Below are positions 46,084-53,451 of a DNA stretch of 64,000 nt, piece after piece. Position 1 is the stretch's first letter, and each line of letters begins with the position of its first letter. The notes under the pieces are model-generated. The model did not search any database and was not told the DNA's origin. It saw only the letters and a program-made list of their open reading frames with translations. The translations under genes and the position numbers were made by a program. The stretch is from Minisyncoccota bacterium (GTDB taxonomy: Bacteria; Patescibacteriota; Minisyncoccia; Minisyncoccales; Minisyncoccaceae), in NCBI GenBank assembly GCA_028692555.1, contig JAQUXE010000002.1, forward strand, positions 1 through 64,000. Direction: 5' to 3'.

Positions 46084-46948
46084 AGAAGTAAAAGCAAAAA
46101 TTGGTTCAGTTAAAAATATTTCAGACATTACGGGCGCTCTGGAAACTTTTTCTGCTCTTAAAATGAAAAAAACTCAAAAGAGATTTTCAGAGTCAAAACC
46201 TTTTACTGAAGAAATGGCAAAAATGTTAAAGAATATGAAAAAAGCTCTAAGAGAAGGAAAGTCAGTATTCTTAGAAAAAAGGCCTGTTAAAGATATATTG
46301 GTTTGTGTTATTGCTTCTGATAGAGGATTTTGTGGGTCTTTTAACTCTAGTGTTTTAAAACTTGCAGATAAGGAAATAGCAGAATTAAGAAAAGAAGGGG
46401 TTGTTGAAATCTTGCCAGTCGGTAAAAAATCTGTAAAACATTATCTAAAAAAAGAAAAAATTAGATACAGCTTTTCTGGTGTTGGTGATTATTGGGAATT
46501 TAAACAAACAAAAGAGATTTCTGATTTTTTAATCAATTCATTTTTGAATGATAAATATCAAAAAATATATATTGTTTATACTCACTTCTATTCATCTTTT
46601 ATTCAAAAACCAAAAGTAGTTCAATTATTTCCAGCAAGAACTAAAACAATAGAAGGTTTTTTACAAGAAAAAACTTGCGGAGAAGTAGACAAAAACTATA
46701 TCTTAGAGCCATCACCCAAAGTAATATTAGATGAAGTGATTCCTGTTTTTGTTCAATATTTGATATATCAGTTTATTCTTTCAGCAAATACATCAGAACA
46801 TTCTGCGAGAATGATGGCAATGAGAAATGCATCTGATAACGCAAAGGGATTATTAGAAGATTTAAGATTAGTTTATAATAAAGCAAGACAAGCACAAATT
46901 ACTTCTGAAGTTTCTGAGATATCATCAACTAAAGAAGCGATGGGATAA
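46073..46948 (+). CDS. atpG: F-type ATP synthase subunit gamma
   Basis: 291 aa. N- and C-terminal coiled-coil helices (…ARQAQITSEVSEISS) typical of gamma. Confidence 0.85.
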   Translation: MELKEVKAKIGSVKNISDITGALETFSALKMKKTQKRFSESKPFTEEMAKMLKNMKKALREGKSVFLEKRPVKDILVCVIASDRGFCGSFNSSVLKLADKEIAELRKEGVVEILPVGKKSVKHYLKKEKIRYSFSGVGDYWEFKQTKEISDFLINSFLNDKYQKIYIVYTHFYSSFIQKPKVVQLFPARTKTIEGFLQEKTCGEVDKNYILEPSPKVILDEVIPVFVQYLIYQFILSANTSEHSARMMAMRNASDNAKGLLEDLRLVYNKARQAQITSEVSEISSTKEAMG

Positions 46949-46951
46949 TAA

Positions 46952-48567
<1,616 letters not shown>

Positions 48568-48604
48568 CAATATAAGTTCTTCTTATACAAAATACTGTTG
48601 ATTA

Positions 48605-48633
48605 TTGACATATTTTAAATGATTTGATATCAT
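48605..48633 (+). promoter_or_regulatory. sigma70-type promoter TTGACA-N17-TATCAT driving the AbiL-like module
   Basis: TTGACA 48605-48610, 17-nt spacer, TATCAT 48628-48633. ATG at 48644 is ~3-5 nt from predicted +1, so the transcript would be leaderless. Confidence 0.45.
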
Positions 48634-48643
48634 ATTAATTAAT

Positions 48644-49864
48644 ATGATACATTCATTTTCTTGTCATAATTTTTATTCATTTAAAGACCTAACAAAGGTT
48701 GATTTTGTGGTTAATAAAAAGGCACCAATAAACAATTCTTATTTCATTACTGAAACAGGTAGTCGTTTATCAAAAATAGAAACAGTGATTGGTCCCAACG
48801 CTTCAGGAAAAACAAACCTATTAAAGGTCATTCCTTTTTTGAGGTGGTTTATTGTTCATTCTTTTGAAATAGATATCGAAAAGAACCTCCCTGTAAAATC
48901 TTTTTTTTATGGTGATTCTGAAAAAAAACCAACATATTTTGCTGTTGTCTTTCAGATAGAAAATAAAATATATGAATATTCAGTAATTCTTGATAGTAAA
49001 ATAATTAAAAAAGAAGAACTTAAGGTTAGGGTAAAAAACATAAAAAAAACATCTACAAAAAAATTGTTTACTAGGGAGTGGGATCCTATAAACAAAAAAT
49101 ATAAATTAAGTGCAAGAAATTTTAATTTGCCCAAAGTTGTGGATGCTTCTCAATTGCAAAATAAGGCAAGCTTAATTTGCACTGCGGCTCGTAGCAATCA
49201 CAAAGAAAGTCAAGAAATAATTAATTTTTGGAGAAAAATAGAAACCAATGTAATTGAAATAGGATGGCTGGGGGACAGTTATTCAAAAGACAAAGGGACT
49301 CAATTTTATAGGGCCGTAAATTTTTATAATAATCCTCAAAATAAAATAATAAAAGAAAGAGTAGAAGAATTGCTTTCTCAATTTGATTTAGGATTAAATT
49401 CATTTAATATTGAGAAAGACGAAAAAGAAGGAGAAGCTTTTCTTCGCCTGAATTTTAACCATTCTTTTGGCGGAGAAATAAAGTTGCTTCCATTTATTTA
49501 TGAGTCTTCCGGAACAAAGCAGTTGTTTATTATACTAAAAAGTATTTTAAGTGTTTTAAATAACGGAGGAATTATTGTTTTAGATGAATTTGATGCGAGC
49601 TTACATCCATCTATAGTTTTAAAAATATTTGAATTATTTATTCATCCAGAAACTAATCCCAACAATGCTCAAATTATTTTTAGTACTCATAATCATCAAA
49701 TTTTAAATTCTTTAGACAAATATCAAATCATTTTGGTTGAAAAAAACAATGAAGGAGTAAGTGAGGCATGGCGATTAGATGAAATGGGTAGTGAAGTTCG
49801 AATAGATGATAATTTTTATGCTAAATATATAGCTGGTACATATGGTGGCATACCAAAGATATAA
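48644..49864 (+). CDS. ABC-type (AAA_21-like) ATPase, AbiLi/RloA-like putative defense ATPase
   Basis: 406 aa. Walker A GPNASGKTN, signature-like ESSGTKQL, Walker B IIVLDEFDASLHP, H-loop STHN. Confidence 0.7.
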   Translation: MIHSFSCHNFYSFKDLTKVDFVVNKKAPINNSYFITETGSRLSKIETVIGPNASGKTNLLKVIPFLRWFIVHSFEIDIEKNLPVKSFFYGDSEKKPTYFAVVFQIENKIYEYSVILDSKIIKKEELKVRVKNIKKTSTKKLFTREWDPINKKYKLSARNFNLPKVVDASQLQNKASLICTAARSNHKESQEIINFWRKIETNVIEIGWLGDSYSKDKGTQFYRAVNFYNNPQNKIIKERVEELLSQFDLGLNSFNIEKDEKEGEAFLRLNFNHSFGGEIKLLPFIYESSGTKQLFIILKSILSVLNNGGIIVLDEFDASLHPSIVLKIFELFIHPETNPNNAQIIFSTHNHQILNSLDKYQIILVEKNNEGVSEAWRLDEMGSEVRIDDNFYAKYIAGTYGGIPKI

Positions 49865-50354
49865 GAAAAAAATAATAAAAAAGACAACTCTTTTTTTCGG
49901 AGAAGGTCTTTTAGATTCTTTGTTTTTAGAGTATTTAAAATCAATATACTCATCAAAAAAGATTCATATAACAATACGACGCGGTCGAGGAGGAGACGCC
50001 AAAAAAATCGTCAAAGATTGTATAAAAGTTTTTGGTGATTTTAAAAAAAGAGCTGTTCTTTTAGATAATGATAAGCCAGCAAAAGAAGTTTTAGATGCAC
50101 GAAAGATTGCTAAAGAAAACAATATTATTGTTATAGAAAATACACCATGCTTAGAAGCACTTTTTTTATCTATTCTTGATAAAGATTATGAAAATAAGAA
50201 TACCAAGTGGTACAAGAAAGAATTTGAAAAACATCATAAAAAAGAAATTCAATCTTTTTATGATTTTAATAAAATCTTTCCAAAAGAAATAATTGAAGAA
50301 AAAAGAGAAAAGATTAGTAATCTTAAATTAATAATAGAGACATTAACAAAATAG
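49842..50354 (+). CDS. RloB/AbiLii-like (TOPRIM-related) partner protein
   Basis: 170 aa. N-terminal TLFFGEGLLDSLFLEYL (cf. RloB ilivcEGekTE.yF) and IVIENTPCLEALFLSIL (cf. RloB NPcFElWlLlHF) recalled from the RloB family. 23-nt overlap with upstream ATPase gene. Confidence 0.5.
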   Translation: MVAYQRYKKKIIKKTTLFFGEGLLDSLFLEYLKSIYSSKKIHITIRRGRGGDAKKIVKDCIKVFGDFKKRAVLLDNDKPAKEVLDARKIAKENNIIVIENTPCLEALFLSILDKDYENKNTKWYKKEFEKHHKKEIQSFYDFNKIFPKEIIEEKREKISNLKLIIETLTK

Positions 50355-50386
50355 ACAAATTTATTTTTTTAGAGTAATATATCACT

Positions 50387-51328
50387 ATGAAAATACAAGA
50401 GATTTTTGATTTAGCAATAAAGATGGGAATAAATTCCGACTTAAGGGGTTCTGCAAAAGTAGAGAAGTTTTTGAGTAGAAAAAAGAAAAAATATGATGAA
50501 TTAAGCGAAGGCAAAAAAGAAGAGTTTGATATTGAGGCACTAACTAATCCTTACTTAGATTCAAGAATTCACAACATTGCAGAAGATAAGGAGATAAAAA
50601 AGGTCTTGTCTGGTATTGATGCTGACACAGCGGAGCTATTACTAGCAAAACAGCTGGGAGTAGATTTAGTTATTAGTCATCATCCTGTTGGAAAAGGATT
50701 GTCTTGCCTGGGGGATGTTATGGAGATGCAGGCCGATATTTACAATCAATATGGAGTTCCAATTAATGTTGCAGAAGCACTAAATAACCCTAAGATTGGA
50801 GAAGTTACAAGAAGCGTTACTTCTTCAAATCATCAAAAAAGTGTTGACGCAGCAAAAATTTTGGGGGTTAATTTTATAAATATTCATACCCCAGCAGATA
50901 ATTTAGTAGCAAATTTTCTTAAGAACTTAGTTGAAAGCAAGGAATTAGAAACAGTTGAGGAGTTAATTAATTTATTAAAAGAAATTCCTGAGTACAGAGA
51001 GGCGATTAAAAATGGTTCTGGTCCTAAAATTATTACAGGCAAGGGAGACAACAGGTGTGGCAAAATTGCAATTACAGAAATAACAGGAGGAACAGAAGCA
51101 TCTTCAAAATTAATGGAAGCTCTTTCTCAGGCAGGAGTTGGTACTGTTGTTGCTATGCACGCCTCGGAAGATCACAGAAAAAAAGCAGAGGCCTCTCATA
51201 TTAATATTGTTATTGCTGGCCATATTTCTTCTGACTCTTTAGGGATGAATTTATTTTTAGATGAACTAGAAAAAAAGGGAATAGAAATTATTCCTTTTAG
51301 TGGATTAACTAGAGTTAAAAGGTCTTAA
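50387..51328 (+). CDS. Nif3-like dinuclear-metal-centre protein (tentative)
   Basis: 313 aa. LVISHHPV and NIHTPAD resemble NIF3 metal-binding motifs (HHP..., H-T-x-x-D). Confidence 0.45.
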   Translation: MKIQEIFDLAIKMGINSDLRGSAKVEKFLSRKKKKYDELSEGKKEEFDIEALTNPYLDSRIHNIAEDKEIKKVLSGIDADTAELLLAKQLGVDLVISHHPVGKGLSCLGDVMEMQADIYNQYGVPINVAEALNNPKIGEVTRSVTSSNHQKSVDAAKILGVNFINIHTPADNLVANFLKNLVESKELETVEELINLLKEIPEYREAIKNGSGPKIITGKGDNRCGKIAITEITGGTEASSKLMEALSQAGVGTVVAMHASEDHRKKAEASHINIVIAGHISSDSLGMNLFLDELEKKGIEIIPFSGLTRVKRS

Positions 51329-52817
51329 TCATATAGGTTTTTGAAAGGCGATATCCTAATTTTTTCCTATAATAATCTCTTACGCCAACACCTGAAATTA
51401 CAGCAATTCTTTTTTTATTTGCTATTTTTTCTGCTTCTTTAACCATTAGCATTCCTAGCCCTTTGTGTTGGGATCCTTTTTTTGATATTTGTGTCGCTTG
51501 ACCATAAACGTGAACTTCTCTAATTAAGGCAGTGTCACTATTAGTAATTCTTAATCTTAAAATAGAATATATATTTTTTCTATTTTTGTCTTCGAAACTT
51601 AAAAATATTTCTTTCCCATCTGATGCCTCATACTCTTCTTTAAAAAGAAAAACTTCTTCGTTTTTTATATCTTTAATTTCTCTGCATCTTATGCATTTGC
51701 ATATTTTTTGAGAATCAATAAATTGTCTTAAGTTTGATGATTTAGCTCCTCCCTCAACAATTAATGGAGAAGGAATATCTCTAATAATTCTTTCAATTCG
51801 AACATAGATTGGAATGTACTTTTTTATTTCATTAATTGTTTCAATTAAAATCTCTCTATTATATGGCTTATATTCTCCTTTGAGATAAAGATTATATAAT
51901 GGAGCTTCTTTTACGAGCGCACAAGGATATATTTTTAAATAATCGGGCTTAAAAGAAGGATTACTAAACAATTCTTTAAACATTTCAATATCTTTTTGAG
52001 GATTAGATCCTGGAAGATTTAACATCATTTGATAGGCAACTTTAAAACCAGCATTTTTCAATAGCTTCGTTGCTTTTATTGTTTCTTTAACTCCGTGGCC
52101 TCTTTTATTCATAGTTAAAACATTATCATATAGTGACTGAACTCCTATCTCTATTTTTGTAGCGCCCAATAGAAGCATTTCGTCAATTTCTTTTTGGTTA
52201 ATAAAATCGGGCCTTGTTTCAAAAGAAATTCCCACGATTCTATGCTTTGCTTTCTCATTCCTTCTTTGGGAAAGCTTCAATGTTCTATCTTTTTTATCAT
52301 TGCAGGCCTCAAAGCATCTTTTAACAAACCACTCTTTGTATTTTTTAGTATAACTAGACCAGTTCCCTCCAATTAGACGGAGCTCTATTTTATCAGTTGG
52401 ATGTCCTCCTAATTCTAATGATTCAATACGATTTTTGACTTGCAAATAGGGATCATACTTTAATTTTTTAGCTCTTTCAACCGCCGGTTCACCCGATAGG
52501 TAGCTTTTGGGAATATTTGTCTCTTTAGGGCAATAAATACACTCTCCAGGGCAATCATATGGCTTGGTTAAGACAGAAACATTAACTACACCTGATAAAG
52601 ACCTCACAGGCCTAGTGATTAATAGTTTTTCTATTTCGCTATTTTTTTTAATTCTTTTTTTATTAACTAAACTATGATATTCTCTAAGCAGAGCAATGTT
52701 ACTTGGGCAATCAATTTTATTCTCTTTAGCAAAGCTTCTTTTAACAGAAGCCAGCTCTTTAGAAGAGGTAACATTTTTATCTAAAAGATCTCTAATTATT
52801 AATTCGTTGTAATTCAT
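51315..52817 (-). CDS. elp3: Elp3-type radical SAM + GNAT tRNA wobble-uridine modifying enzyme
   Basis: 500 aa. Radical-SAM cluster CPGECIYC (CxxxCxxC), long rSAM core, C-terminal acetyltransferase-like domain. Confidence 0.85.
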   Translation of the reverse strand: MNYNELIIRDLLDKNVTSSKELASVKRSFAKENKIDCPSNIALLREYHSLVNKKRIKKNSEIEKLLITRPVRSLSGVVNVSVLTKPYDCPGECIYCPKETNIPKSYLSGEPAVERAKKLKYDPYLQVKNRIESLELGGHPTDKIELRLIGGNWSSYTKKYKEWFVKRCFEACNDKKDRTLKLSQRRNEKAKHRIVGISFETRPDFINQKEIDEMLLLGATKIEIGVQSLYDNVLTMNKRGHGVKETIKATKLLKNAGFKVAYQMMLNLPGSNPQKDIEMFKELFSNPSFKPDYLKIYPCALVKEAPLYNLYLKGEYKPYNREILIETINEIKKYIPIYVRIERIIRDIPSPLIVEGGAKSSNLRQFIDSQKICKCIRCREIKDIKNEEVFLFKEEYEASDGKEIFLSFEDKNRKNIYSILRLRITNSDTALIREVHVYGQATQISKKGSQHKGLGMLMVKEAEKIANKKRIAVISGVGVRDYYRKKLGYRLSKTYMIKTF

Positions 52818-53451
52818 GGAAAATAATAAAGCTAAAAATATAATAAGGGAAACTATTGAGGATTATAACAGCATTTCCCAAAAATACTCAAGCGTTAGAA
52901 GTAAGCCATGGAAAGAGATGGAGTTTCTCTTTAGAGATACTAAAGAGGGCGACAACGTCTTAGATTTAGGTTGCGGAAACGGAAGATTTTATGAATATCT
53001 TAAAAAATCTAACTATATTGGTATAGACCCTTCGGTAGAATTAATTAAAATATGTAAAAATAATTATCCTGAGGCAAGCTTCAAGGTTGCTCTTGGCAAT
53101 GATCTTCCCTTTGAAGATGAATTATTTGATAAAATATTTAGCATTGCAGTTTTGCATCATATCCCTAGTGAAAAATTAAGAAAAGAATTTTTATTAGAAG
53201 TTAAAAGAGTTTTAAAAAATGATGGCATATTTATTTTGACTGTCTGGAATTTAAAAAACAAACTAAAAGGAGAGAAAGATGTTTTTATTCCATGGTATAG
53301 CGAAAAAGAAACTTATTTTTATTGTTTTAATCTAGAAGAACTGATACAATTAGTCAAAGATTGTGGTTTTGAGATTATTGACAGCGGAGAGATATTAATA
53401 GGAAAAAAGCCATATTCTAATTTTTATATCAAATGTCAAAAAAAGAAATAA
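52816..53451 (+). CDS. Trm9-like tRNA (carboxymethyluridine34) methyltransferase
   Basis: 211 aa. SAM motif VLDLGCGNGRF. Blocks Y..ISQKYSSVRSKPW, FDKIFSIAVLHHIPS and DVFIPW mirror Trm9 blocks (YNEIAPHFSQTRYKPW, FDFAISIAVVHH, DVFVPW). Divergent with elp3, overlapping by 2 nt. Confidence 0.65.
   Translation: MENNKAKNIIRETIEDYNSISQKYSSVRSKPWKEMEFLFRDTKEGDNVLDLGCGNGRFYEYLKKSNYIGIDPSVELIKICKNNYPEASFKVALGNDLPFEDELFDKIFSIAVLHHIPSEKLRKEFLLEVKRVLKNDGIFILTVWNLKNKLKGEKDVFIPWYSEKETYFYCFNLEELIQLVKDCGFEIIDSGEILIGKKPYSNFYIKCQKKK

What the first reader, a model, noticed from the sequence alone, without database searches (positions are those of the whole stretch)
48605..50354. AbiL/RloAB-like two-gene putative abortive-infection module with leaderless start, appended to the ATP synthase operon
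An ABC-type ATPase (406 aa; Walker A GPNASGKTN, signature ESSGTKQL, Walker B VLDEFD, H-loop STHN) is translationally overlapped by 23 nt with a 170-aa partner. The partner's motifs (TLFFGEGLL..., ENTPCLEALFL) match the RloB/AbiLii (TOPRIM-like) family, from memory. The pair has its own near-consensus promoter (TTGACA-N17-TATCAT), positioned so that the ATG at 48644 is essentially at the transcription start. ATPase+RloB pairs are associated with abortive infection (AbiL) and restriction-linked loci. Finding one directly after atpC in a reduced genome is unexpected.
Basis: partly seen in the sequence, partly recalled or inferred. Interest (0 to 1): 0.7.

Follow-up and report, generated by a model that had tools for sequence, protein, structure and literature searches.

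The report
AbiL-type phage-defence pair after atpC
A two-gene cassette (an ABC-type ATPase plus a small RloB/TOPRIM-like nuclease) of the known AbiL anti-phage family was inserted between the ATP synthase operon and the next gene in one narrow lineage of ultrasmall Paceibacteria; it is a real but fairly ordinary defence-gene insertion.

Summary
ORFs 48644-49864 (406 aa) and 49842-50354 (170 aa) overlap by 23 nt and follow an 11/12 sigma-70-like promoter.

**Family.** The ATPase hits PADLOC AbiLi at E=9e-74, as strongly as a lactococcal prophage AbiL ATPase, and models as a Rad50/SMC-type head, not a transporter. The partner is a divergent short RloB/AbiLii protein (PADLOC AbiLii E=1.4e-8; Pfam RloB 25.1 bits, below the 31.5 cut-off). 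It aligns end to end with 176-aa RloB partners of homologous ATPases and keeps E21, D75xD77, E99 and E105.

**Insertion.** The closest species representatives have atpC, a terminator, then the NIF3-like gene, with no pair. Other relatives carry different cargo in that slot, including a candidate defence ATPase and a DGR.

**Corrections.** The near-leaderless, SD-less start is a habit of this genome. The 23-nt overlap comes from a lineage-specific 35-nt deletion. The atpC terminator is lost, so read-through is possible. Published surveys report high defence density per Mb in Paceibacteria, so the presence of a defence system is not very surprising.

**Verdict.** New member of a known kind; anti-phage function is inferred, not shown. 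Interest is low to moderate.

The parts
48568..48604 (+). Left junction of the insertion: decayed remnant of the atpC intrinsic terminator
   Evidence: Empty-site relatives L011, L013 and L014 fold into a hairpin plus U-run here (-10.4 to -14.7 kcal/mol). The window and L091 give about -3 kcal/mol, no better than shuffled sequence (alignment A3). No terminator-like site was found on the + strand between 48198 and 51453.
48605..48633 (+). Sigma-70-like promoter of the pair (TTGACA-N17-TATCAT, with TG extended -10 in this lineage)
   Evidence: Matches 11 of 12 positions. Both hexamers are invariant in the window, L091, L095 and L096 while the spacer varies; the TG is not conserved. The -10 ends 10 nt before the ATG.
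48644..49864 (+). AbiLi-type ABC ATPase (406 aa), Rad50/SMC-head-like
48791..48814 (+). Walker A (G50-P-N-A-S-G-K-T57)
   Evidence: Read from the sequence. G50, A53, S54, G55, K56 and T57 are invariant in A5.
49499..49522 (+). ABC signature motif variant (Y286-E-S-S-G-T-K-Q293)
   Evidence: Read from the sequence. Y286, E287, S288, G290, T291 and Q293 are invariant in A5.
49577..49609 (+). Walker B and D-loop (V312-L-D-E-F-D-A-S-L-H-P322)
   Evidence: Read from the sequence. D314, E315, D317, L320, H321 and P322 are invariant.
49682..49690 (+). H-loop (S347-T-H349)
   Evidence: Read from the sequence. S347 and H349 are invariant.
49790..49861 (+). Conserved but predicted-disordered C-terminal tail of the ATPase (residues 383-406); possible docking peptide
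   Evidence: pLDDT is below 50 for residues 383-391 and 396-406, yet R386, D388, N390, K394, Y395, G398, Y400, G401 and P404 are invariant. The docking role is inferred.
49842..49864 (+). 23-nt gene overlap created by a lineage-specific net 35-nt deletion
   Evidence: Homologous pairs in L007 and L009 have a 12-nt spacer, and their partner starts MSRTNPYKKK. In the window the ATPase stops at a TAA inside the partner's TAT-AAG, and the partner starts at an ATG inside the ATPase's invariant Y400-G401 codons. The same overlap is present in L091, L095 and L096.
49842..50354 (+). AbiLii / short RloB-family, TOPRIM-like putative nuclease (170 aa)
49896..49907 (+). F19-G-E21-G22: TOPRIM-type glutamate at the end of strand 1
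   Evidence: G20, E21 and G22 are invariant in 57 sequences. E21 and G22 are also invariant in plasmid and phage partners at 23-25% identity. Strand 1 spans residues 14-20 in the model.
50064..50072 (+). D75-N-D77: DxD metal-binding motif at the end of strand 3
   Evidence: D75 and D77 are invariant. Strand 3 spans residues 69-75.
50136..50156 (+). E99-N-T-P-C-L-E105: second acidic motif of the RloB family
   Evidence: P102, C103, L104 and E105 are invariant and E99 is at least 90% conserved. E105 is invariant in distant partners.
50352..50386 (+). Right junction: the partner's stop codon TAG overlaps the -35 box (TAGACA) of the ancestral promoter of the NIF3-like gene (TAGACA-N17-TAATAT-N6-ATG)
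   Evidence: Alignment A4 shows homology with the empty sites L011, L013 and L014 resuming at TAGACAA. The promoter site was found.

Best explanation
This is a compact AbiL-family (RloA/RloB-type) two-gene anti-phage module.

Shown: a roughly 1.76 kb cassette with its own promoter was inserted into the 55-60 nt spacer between atpC and the NIF3-like gene in one narrow lineage of Paceibacteria (Patescibacteria/CPR). It encodes a Rad50/SMC-head-type ABC ATPase with all catalytic motifs intact. It also encodes a 170-aa RloB-family protein that keeps the TOPRIM-type acidic residues (E21, D75xD77, E99, E105). Both genes have been kept open in four diverged lineages. The ATPase is under purifying selection as strong as its housekeeping neighbours, and the partner is under weaker purifying selection. 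The cassette is co-directional with the atp operon. The atpC terminator has been lost.

Inferred, by analogy with PARIS (AriA/AriB), with lactococcal AbiL and with experimentally validated AAA-ATPase/TOPRIM_OLD toxin-antitoxin pairs: the ATPase oligomer holds the small nuclease inactive and acts as the infection sensor. A phage cue triggers an ATP-dependent change that releases or activates the nuclease. The nuclease then cuts host or phage nucleic acid (tRNA/RNA or DNA). This stops growth of the infected cell and aborts the infection. Translation of the two genes is probably coupled through the 23-nt overlap. Transcription probably comes both from the cassette's promoter, giving an mRNA with almost no leader, and from atp read-through.
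For: - Family assignment: PADLOC AbiLi E=9.4e-74 and AbiLii E=1.4e-8. A lactococcal prophage pair annotated 'abortive phage resistance protein' scores about the same on the AbiLi model (254 bits against 246).
- The architecture recurs in unrelated contexts: Falkowbacteria L007 and a 430 kb contig L009; a 5.3 kb Photobacterium plasmid; a Stenotrophomonas phage; and Lactococcus prophage proPhi7, where it sits after the lysin gene.
- Partner homology and motifs.
- Insertion: the pair is absent from 80 atp loci of related species, and the closest three have atpC directly followed by NIF3; junctions.
- The slot carries other accessory or defence cargo in relatives: candidate PDC-S27 in L012 and a DGR in L029.
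- Selection: ATPase dN/dS 0.09-0.13, partner 0.27-0.49, all ORFs intact.
- Promoter hexamers are conserved, and the terminator is lost.
- Literature: AbiL is grouped with the ABC ATPase + TOPRIM systems (PMC11464382; PMC13064643). AAA + TOPRIM_OLD pairs behave as toxin-antitoxin pairs (PMC10440598). PARIS mechanism: PMC11464382.
Against: - There is no functional data for this subfamily or this organism; no phage, trigger or nuclease substrate is known.
- The partner's Pfam RloB score is below the gathering threshold (25.1 against 31.5 bits).
- Foldseek against the PDB gave nothing at E<=1e-3.
- The window lineage lost the family's near-invariant N-terminal M-S-x-x-N-P motif through the 35-nt deletion.
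- The partner's dN/dS is several-fold higher than the ATPase's, so its activity could be altered or weakened.
- No relatives were found in the viral-contig collection.
Confidence: 0.75

Rival explanations
1. The pair is a selfish toxin-antitoxin (addiction) cassette with no antiviral role. The RloB nuclease is the toxin and the ATPase the antitoxin, and the pair persists because losing it kills the cell.
For: AAA ATPase + TOPRIM_OLD pairs were validated as toxin/antitoxin pairs in toxicity-neutralisation assays (PMC10440598). The cassette is horizontally acquired and appears to be exchanged by recombination among related lineages. Relatives occur on small plasmids.
Against: The same paper and the PARIS work treat such pairs as phage-defence systems, so the two readings are not exclusive. 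Homologs sit in prophage moron positions and in defence-type hotspots. The founding AbiL was isolated by its phage-resistance phenotype (Deng 1999, as cited in PMC13064643).
Confidence: 0.1
2. The cassette is decaying. After the 35-nt junction deletion the partner lost its conserved N-terminus and is no longer a functional effector, so the ATPase is now an orphan or does something else.
For: The near-invariant MSxxNP N-terminus is lost. The partner's dN/dS is 0.27-0.49 against 0.09-0.13 for the ATPase. The partner scores lowest of the tested partners on PADLOC AbiLii and lacks the second AbiLii model hit that other partners give. Its Pfam RloB score is below threshold.
Against: Four lineages separated by dS up to about 0.2-0.3 all keep a 170-aa ORF with no stops or indels, and every catalytic motif is invariant. 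dN/dS is still well below 1. Residues 1-9 are disordered in the model. Elevated rates are common in defence effectors.
Confidence: 0.08
3. The pair is a housekeeping DNA repair/recombination pair (an SMC/Rad50/RecF-like ATPase with a TOPRIM partner, analogous to RecF-RecR or SbcCD) that happens to sit after the atp operon.
For: The ATPase's best structural matches are Rad50 and SMC heads. RecR is a TOPRIM protein and RecF an SMC-like ABC ATPase (established knowledge; Aravind 1998, cited in PMC10568477).
Against: NCBIfam RecF gives 16 bits against a cut-off of 172, and the partner has no RecR hit. The pair is absent from the atp loci of the closest species, and homologs lie in unrelated contexts. 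The best profile hits are to defence families. Homologs are spread patchily across phyla at about 55-60% identity.
Confidence: 0.03
4. The pair is a restriction-modification accessory (RloA/RloB as first described inside type I hsd loci of Campylobacter) that modulates a restriction system.
For: Pfam names the partner family after RloB. RloAB were found in type I R-M loci (Miller 2005, as cited in PMC13064643 and PMC10440598).
Against: There are no hsd or other restriction genes within about 10 kb on either side (gene lists). The only methyltransferase nearby (52816-53451) is conserved in relatives that lack the pair. None of the homolog contexts examined is R-M linked.
Confidence: 0.02

Closest known systems
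AbiL (AbiLi/AbiLii) of Lactococcus lactis plasmid pND861 and AbiL-like pairs as defined in PADLOC/DefenseFinder
   Same: Two co-directional genes with the ATPase first: an AAA_21/AAA_15-type ABC ATPase and an RloB-family TOPRIM-like partner. The window ATPase scores on the PADLOC AbiLi model as well as a lactococcal prophage copy does (246 against 254 bits). The partner hits only AbiLii.
   Different: Both proteins are smaller than the sizes implied in the 2026 review for lactococcal AbiLi/AbiLii (about 453 aa, and at least 206 aa aligned range; PMC13064643): 406 and 170 aa here. Sequence identity to the lactococcal prophage pair is only about 26% and 23%. The location is chromosomal, in a CPR bacterium. 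The genes overlap by 23 nt and the partner's N-terminus has been rebuilt.
Compact ATPase (~404 aa) + short RloB (~176 aa) subfamily, widespread in Patescibacteria metagenomes (e.g. Falkowbacteria GCA_026396805.1; 'Abortive infection protein' of Parcubacteria GW2011_GWC2_39_14)
   Same: This is the direct family of the window pair: ATPase 53-60% identical and partner 40-49% identical, both over their full length, with the same motifs. The short-RloB profile finds 955 clusters at 50% identity.
   Different: Other members have a 12-nt spacer and a conserved MSRTNP N-terminus on the partner. The window clade has the 35-nt deletion and forms its own 50%-identity cluster.
PARIS (AriA ABC ATPase + AriB TOPRIM/DUF4435 nuclease), OLD class 4
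   Different: The partner gives no AriB/DUF4435 hit. The AriA models in PADLOC score far below AbiLi (5.8e-30 against 9.4e-74). The partner is half the size of AriB (35 kDa). The helical insert of the ATPase is short (about residues 177-246) instead of a long coiled-coil arm.
RloA/RloB of Campylobacter jejuni type I R-M loci
   Same: The partner belongs to the Pfam family named after RloB and is paired with an AAA ATPase.
   Different: There is no R-M context here.
Single-chain OLD nucleases (P2 Old, class 1; Gabija GajA, class 2)
   Different: The modules are on separate polypeptides here, and there is no GajB-like helicase partner.

Membership tests
AbiL (PADLOC/DefenseFinder sense) | First gene is an AbiLi-type AAA_21/AAA_15 ABC ATPase | tested here: met
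   PADLOC AbiLi PDLC02335 E=9.4e-74, 246 bits, far ahead of the next model. Pfam AAA_21 scores 106.9 bits against a gathering score of 27. A lactococcal prophage AbiL-like ATPase scores 254 bits on the same model.
AbiL (PADLOC/DefenseFinder sense) | Second gene is homologous to AbiLii / RloB (PF13707) | tested here: met
   PADLOC AbiLii PDLC02338 E=1.4e-8, the only hit. Pfam RloB E=2.4e-5, but 25.1 bits is below the gathering score of 31.5, so the protein would not be auto-annotated; NCBI calls it 'hypothetical protein'. Homology is secured by end-to-end alignment at 43-49% identity with partners that do carry PF13707. All 57 aligned family members hit RloB, best E=1.4e-12.
AbiL (PADLOC/DefenseFinder sense) | The two genes are adjacent, co-directional and form one operon | tested here: met
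   23-nt overlap on the same strand behind a single upstream promoter. The same order is seen in all homologous loci examined.
AbiL (PADLOC/DefenseFinder sense) | Confers phage resistance by abortive infection | not testable with these tools
   This needs phage challenge in a host. It is known only for the founding lactococcal system (Deng 1999, via PMC13064643).
ABC ATPase + TOPRIM (OLD-like) defence superfamily | Catalytically intact ABC ATPase of the Rad50/SMC-like class | tested here: met
ABC ATPase + TOPRIM (OLD-like) defence superfamily | Effector has the TOPRIM acidic residues: a Glu after strand 1 and DxD after strand 3 | tested here: met
   E21 follows strand 14-20 and D75-N-D77 ends strand 69-75 in the model. 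These residues are invariant in 57 sequences and in partners at 23-25% identity.
ABC ATPase + TOPRIM (OLD-like) defence superfamily | Effector adopts the TOPRIM fold, closest to OLD-family nucleases | tested here: inconclusive
PARIS (AriA/AriB) | Effector is AriB (DUF4435 + TOPRIM, about 35 kDa) | tested here: not met
   The partner has no AriB or DUF4435 hit in Pfam or PADLOC, and it is only 170 aa.
RloAB of type I restriction-modification loci | Embedded among hsdR/M/S genes | tested here: not met
   Neighbouring genes are atp subunits, a NIF3-like gene, a radical SAM gene, a methyltransferase that is conserved in pair-less relatives, and others. There are no hsd genes.
RecF / SbcC housekeeping repair ATPases | Equivalog-level profile match and conserved synteny or presence across relatives | tested here: not met
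   NCBIfam RecF gives 16.1 bits against a cut-off of 172. The pair is absent from 80 related atp loci.
ABC transporter ATP-binding subunit | Transporter-type nucleotide-binding domain with an adjacent permease | tested here: not met
   All NCBIfam transporter hits are far below their cut-offs. There is no membrane partner. Structurally it is closer to Rad50/SMC than to transporter domains.

The most novel reading that the evidence does not exclude
The cassette may be more than a passive passenger. In this clade the atpC|NIF3 spacer may act as a recombination-exchangeable 'defence slot' flanked by core genes. Through it, ultrasmall Paceibacteria would swap immune cargo: the AbiL pair here, candidate PDC-S27 in L012, and a DGR plus DUF4143 ATPases in L029. 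In addition, loss of the atpC terminator may have wired the AbiL pair into the ATP synthase transcription unit, so that the level of an ATP-dependent suicide sensor tracks expression of the cell's ATP-generating machinery. The rebuilt partner N-terminus and overlap could then be an adaptation for tightly coupled stoichiometric translation.
Probability: 0.12. Interest if true: 0.5.

Novelty: new member of a known kind. Interest (0 to 1): 0.3.

Why it matters
Patescibacteria/CPR are abundant, mostly uncultured episymbionts, and their virus-host biology is barely known. This locus is a clean, datable example of a CPR genome acquiring a known class of anti-phage system (ABC ATPase + TOPRIM-like nuclease). 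It has the empty site, both junctions, the promoter and the selection regime all visible.

It also identifies a compact subfamily (about 404 aa + about 176 aa) with roughly 950 clusters at 50% identity. That subfamily would be a convenient minimal model for how AbiL/RloAB systems work, which is still unknown.

The partner escapes automatic annotation because it falls below the Pfam threshold, so defence censuses of CPR genomes probably undercount such pairs. Beyond that, the finding does not change the picture of what these systems are.

Tried and rejected
- Foldseek of the partner model against the PDB: no match at E<=1e-3.
- phmmer and profile search of the partner against PDB sequences: only chance-level hits.
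- NCBIfam on both proteins: nothing near any cut-off, and no hit at all for the partner.
- Scan of IMG/VR viral contigs with the ATPase family alignment: no relatives.
- Search for terminal direct or inverted repeats, an integrase or other mobility signature at the insertion edges: only AT-rich chance matches.
- Rfam scan of 42000-52000 at E<=0.1: nothing, so there is no RNA component, unlike retron- or ToxIN-type systems.
- Base composition: the pair has 26-30% GC against 34-38% for the atp genes, but that is similar to other nearby genes, so it is not a usable foreignness signal.
- 'Leaderless start as a special feature of the pair': rejected, because the same geometry and the lack of SD are seen throughout the window.
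- PARIS membership, R-M-linked RloAB, RecF/SbcC housekeeping and ABC transporter: each considered and rejected on the tests listed under membership.
- The methyltransferase at 52816-53451 hits PADLOC mad2, but only over the generic methyltransferase domain, and it is conserved in pair-less relatives. It is not treated as part of a system.
Full report
**1. What is in the sequence.**
ORF listing and direct reading confirm two co-directional ORFs on the + strand. ORF A is 48644-49864 (406 aa) and ORF B is 49842-50354 (170 aa), overlapping by 23 nt. ORF A starts 76 nt after the stop of an 82-aa atpC, which closes a complete F-type ATP synthase operon (atpB at 42545 through atpC at 48567).
- ATPase: GPNASGKT, YESSGTKQ, VLDEFD, STH.
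- Partner: FFGEG, LDNDK, ENTPCLE.

A promoter scan finds TTGACA-N17-TATCAT, preceded by TG, at 48605-48633. It is one of only two 11/12 matches in the 10 kb examined; the other is the atp operon's own promoter at 42506-42533. Consensus matches as a class are not enriched (40 found against 38.3 expected). The stronger argument for function is comparative: in four diverged lineages the two hexamers are invariant while the 17-nt spacer differs at 5 or more positions.

**2. Organism and public status.**
An exact-sequence look-up places the locus in a Candidatus Pacebacteria/Paceibacterota MAG (GCA_028708475.1, contig JAQVYU010000001.1) and in five other assemblies with identical gene order. Related atp operons belong to Paceibacterota/Minisyncoccales, including the cultured Minisyncoccus archaeiphilus. 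In the public record the ATPase is named 'ATP-binding protein' and the partner 'hypothetical protein', so the pair is not annotated as a defence system.

**3. Family of the ATPase.**
- Pfam gives AAA_21 (E=2.8e-30), above threshold.
- PADLOC gives AbiLi at E=9.4e-74 (246 bits). The next model, a generic AAA_21-based AriA model, is at 5.8e-30.
- A Lactococcus prophage (proPhi7) gene annotated 'abortive phage resistance protein' scores 254 bits on the same AbiLi model. The window protein is therefore as good a member as a lactococcal one, although the two share only about 26% identity.
- NCBIfam gives nothing near any cut-off (RecF 16 bits against 172; transporter ATPases far below).
- All ATPase motif residues are invariant in the family alignment.
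- In place of a coiled coil there is a short helical insert (about residues 177-246).
- The last 24 residues are predicted disordered yet contain nine invariant positions. This suggests a docking peptide (inference).

**4. Family of the partner.**
Alone, the partner is a weak hitter:
- Pfam RloB E=2.4e-5 at 25.1 bits, below the gathering score of 31.5.
- PADLOC AbiLii E=1.4e-8, its only hit.
- No NCBIfam hit.
- A word-indexed homology search found only five relatives.

The link becomes solid through context:
- ATPase homologs at 55-60% identity in a Falkowbacteria MAG and in a 430 kb contig are each followed, 12 nt downstream, by a 176-177 aa gene with a Pfam RloB hit.
- Those proteins align with the window partner from end to end at 43-49% identity.
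- A profile built from that alignment retrieves 441 relatives, nearly all 175-177 aa and mostly carrying PF13707.
- All 57 members of a curated alignment hit RloB, best E=1.4e-12.
- An exhaustive profile search over 1.84 billion cluster representatives finds 955 clusters at E<=1e-3 and 551 at E<=1e-10, almost all 165-185 aa.

So this is a sizeable family of compact RloB proteins, in which the window clade forms its own 50%-identity cluster.

Invariant residues are G20-E21-G22, G48xG50G51, D75 and D77, and P102-C103-L104-E105, with E99 at 90% or more. E21, G22, G50, D75, D77 and E105 remain invariant when plasmid and phage partners at 23-25% identity are added.

**5. Is the partner a TOPRIM nuclease?**

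**6. The pair is an insertion.**
A scan of one genome per GTDB species with the AtpG protein returned 80 atp loci. tblastn with the window's proteins found no AbiLi or AbiLii in any of them.
- In the three closest species that have a compact site (L011, L013, L014; AtpG 85-88%), atpC is followed after about 55-60 nt by the ortholog of the window's NIF3-like gene (50387-51328).
- Alignments of the junctions show the empty site consists of a terminator hairpin with a U-run overlapping the atpC stop, followed by TAGACA-N17-TAATAT-N6-ATG.
- In the window, homology on the right resumes exactly at TAGACAA. The partner's stop codon (50352-50354) therefore overlaps the -35 box of the NIF3 promoter.
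- On the left the hairpin has decayed. Folding gives -10.4 to -14.7 kcal/mol in the empty sites against about -3 kcal/mol, no better than shuffles, in pair-bearing lineages.
- No terminator-like site lies between atpC and the pair or after it. Read-through from the atp operon is therefore plausible in addition to the cassette's own promoter.
- No repeats, integrase or RNA element mark the edges.

**7. The slot is a cargo site.**
Other relatives carry different content between atpC and NIF3:
- L012: transposase-like fragments plus an ATPase_2/DUF234 protein that matches the PADLOC candidate system PDC-S27 (E=1.4e-47).
- L029: two DUF4143 ATPases and a diversity-generating-retroelement set (RVT_1, bAvd, and an FGE-sulfatase-type target protein).
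- L015, L042, L043: secreted-looking proteins.

This pattern fits the defence reading by location.

**8. History within the clade.**
Four lineages (window, L091, L095, L096) carry the pair in the same slot. Nei-Gojobori estimates give the following.

| Gene | dN/dS |
|---|---|
| AtpD | 0.02 |
| NIF3-like | 0.07-0.16 |
| ATPase (AbiLi) | 0.09-0.13 |
| Partner (AbiLii) | 0.27-0.49 |

All partner ORFs are intact and all motifs unchanged. The partner is therefore constrained, but less so than the ATPase.

Divergence is incongruent along the locus. Window versus L095 is the most diverged pair at atpD (dS 0.61) and atpC (0.52). It is the least diverged pair at AbiLi (0.10) and AbiLii (0.085), and the 80 nt upstream are identical. 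The simplest reading is homologous recombination that moved the cassette between related lineages, with a breakpoint between atpC and the cassette.

**9. Origin of the overlap.**
Compared with L007 and L009, the window clade has a net 35-nt deletion at the gene junction. It removed the ATPase's last codon and stop, the 12-nt spacer, and the partner's start plus five codons. Both frames were restored by accident: the ATPase now ends at a TAA lying within the partner's TAT-AAG, and the partner now starts at an ATG lying within the ATPase's invariant Tyr400-Gly401 codons (TAT-GGN). The cost is the loss of the family's near-invariant N-terminal M-S-x-x-N-P. The new residues 1-9 are disordered in the model. 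The overlap is thus derived, not a family trait. Translational coupling is a reasonable inference.

**10. The 'leaderless' claim.**
The -10 ends 10 nt before the ATG, which predicts a leader of about 3-4 nt with no Shine-Dalgarno. A crude survey of all 68 ORFs of at least 80 aa in the window shows only 6 have even a 4-mer SD core. Many first genes of operons have a good promoter whose -10 ends 5-11 nt before the start codon:
- 13849 (distance 10)
- 27440 (6)
- 29945 on the - strand (5)
- 33550 on the - strand (11)
- 38827 (6)
- atpB at 42545 (11)
- NIF3 at 50387 (6)
- 55707 on the - strand (6)
- 57206 (6)

The geometry is a genome habit, so it says nothing special about this pair.

**11. Mechanism.**
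Nothing is known experimentally for this subfamily. From the literature:
- The founding AbiL blocks Ceduovirus phages after transcription (table in PMC13064643, citing Deng 1999).
- AbiL is placed with PARIS and MADS among AAA15/21 ABC ATPase + TOPRIM systems (PMC11464382).
- AAA + TOPRIM_OLD pairs behave as antitoxin and toxin in E. coli (PMC10440598).
- In PARIS the ATPase hexamer sequesters the nuclease and releases it on sensing a phage protein, after which tRNA-Lys is cleaved (PMC11464382).

I therefore propose, as inference, that the ATPase is the sensor and keeper and the RloB protein is a metal-dependent nuclease effector whose release arrests the infected cell. Which nucleic acid is cut, and what the trigger is, cannot be said.

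**12. Comparison and verdict.**
The pair meets the sequence-level definition of AbiL and of the wider ABC ATPase + TOPRIM group. It fails the tests for PARIS (no AriB/DUF4435), R-M-linked RloAB (no hsd genes), RecF/SbcC (no equivalog match, not conserved) and transporters. Distant copies of the same architecture sit on a 5.3 kb plasmid, in a Stenotrophomonas phage and in a Lactococcus prophage. Homologs of the ATPase at 53-60% identity are labelled Patescibacteria, Nanoarchaeota, Elusimicrobiota, Bacteroidales and Clostridia. That patchy spread is typical of defence genes.

A groundwater survey reports that CPR genomes have fewer systems per genome but a higher density per Mb, highest in Paceibacteria (PMC12259885). 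[quoted passage not shown] The find is thus a new, well-documented member of a known kind. Its evolutionary detail is tidy, but there is no new principle.

Noticed in passing
L012:4336-7679; L029:4226-9763; L015:10495-11545; L042:6296-9847; L043:10527-12108: The atpC|NIF3 intergenic slot is a variable cargo site in this clade. L012 holds transposase-like fragments plus an ATPase_2/DUF234 protein matching PADLOC candidate PDC-S27 (E=1.4e-47). L029 holds two DUF4143 ATPases and a diversity-generating-retroelement set (RVT_1, bAvd, FGE-sulfatase-type target). The others hold secreted-looking proteins.
   Followed up: partly
window:38827-40242: A 471-aa AAA_14/DUF4143 ATPase matches the PADLOC single-gene candidate defence system PDC-S01 (E=4.7e-35). 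It lies about 8 kb upstream of the AbiL pair, so the region may hold more than one defence-type gene.
   Followed up: partly
window:42296-42499: A 67-aa ORF matches only the C-terminal two-thirds of the YafQ/RelE-type toxin profile (positions 30-87 of 88; E=9.6e-15). It starts at the stop of the Mur ligase gene, and no antitoxin gene is visible. It is probably a truncated toxin remnant just upstream of the atp promoter.
   Followed up: partly
whole window (68 ORF starts): Only 6 of 68 ORF starts have even a 4-mer Shine-Dalgarno core. Many operon-leading genes have a strong promoter whose -10 ends 5-6 or 10-11 nt before the start codon. This suggests widespread leaderless or near-leaderless mRNAs in this Paceibacteria genome.
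   Followed up: partly
window:46961-51328 versus L095, L091, L096: Synonymous divergence is incongruent along the locus. Window versus L095 has dS 0.61 at atpD but 0.10 at AbiLi, with an identical promoter region. This points to a recombination breakpoint between atpC and the cassette, that is, exchange of the cassette among related lineages.
   Followed up: partly
window:48319-48567 and 44211-44594: atpC encodes only 82 aa (the N-terminal beta-sandwich domain, Pfam ATP-synt_DE_N only), so the epsilon subunit lacks the usual C-terminal helical inhibitory domain. The 127-aa ORF in the delta-subunit position has no Pfam hit. Both features are shared by relatives.
   Followed up: no
window:49790-49861: The ATPase's C-terminal 24 residues are predicted disordered (pLDDT below 50) yet contain nine invariant residues across 49 homologs. 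They may be an interaction peptide. The partner's new start codon lies inside this conserved stretch.
   Followed up: no
window:53433-54011: A 192-aa LDcluster4/SLOG-type protein (with a faint STALD hit in the precomputed Pfam list) lies downstream. SLOG domains occur in some conflict systems, but this gene is conserved in pair-bearing relatives and gave no PADLOC hit.
   Followed up: partly
P0017: An ATPase homolog at 59% identity is labelled Nanoarchaeota archaeon. If it is not a binning error, it would indicate inter-domain transfer of this compact AbiL subfamily among ultrasmall symbionts.
   Followed up: no
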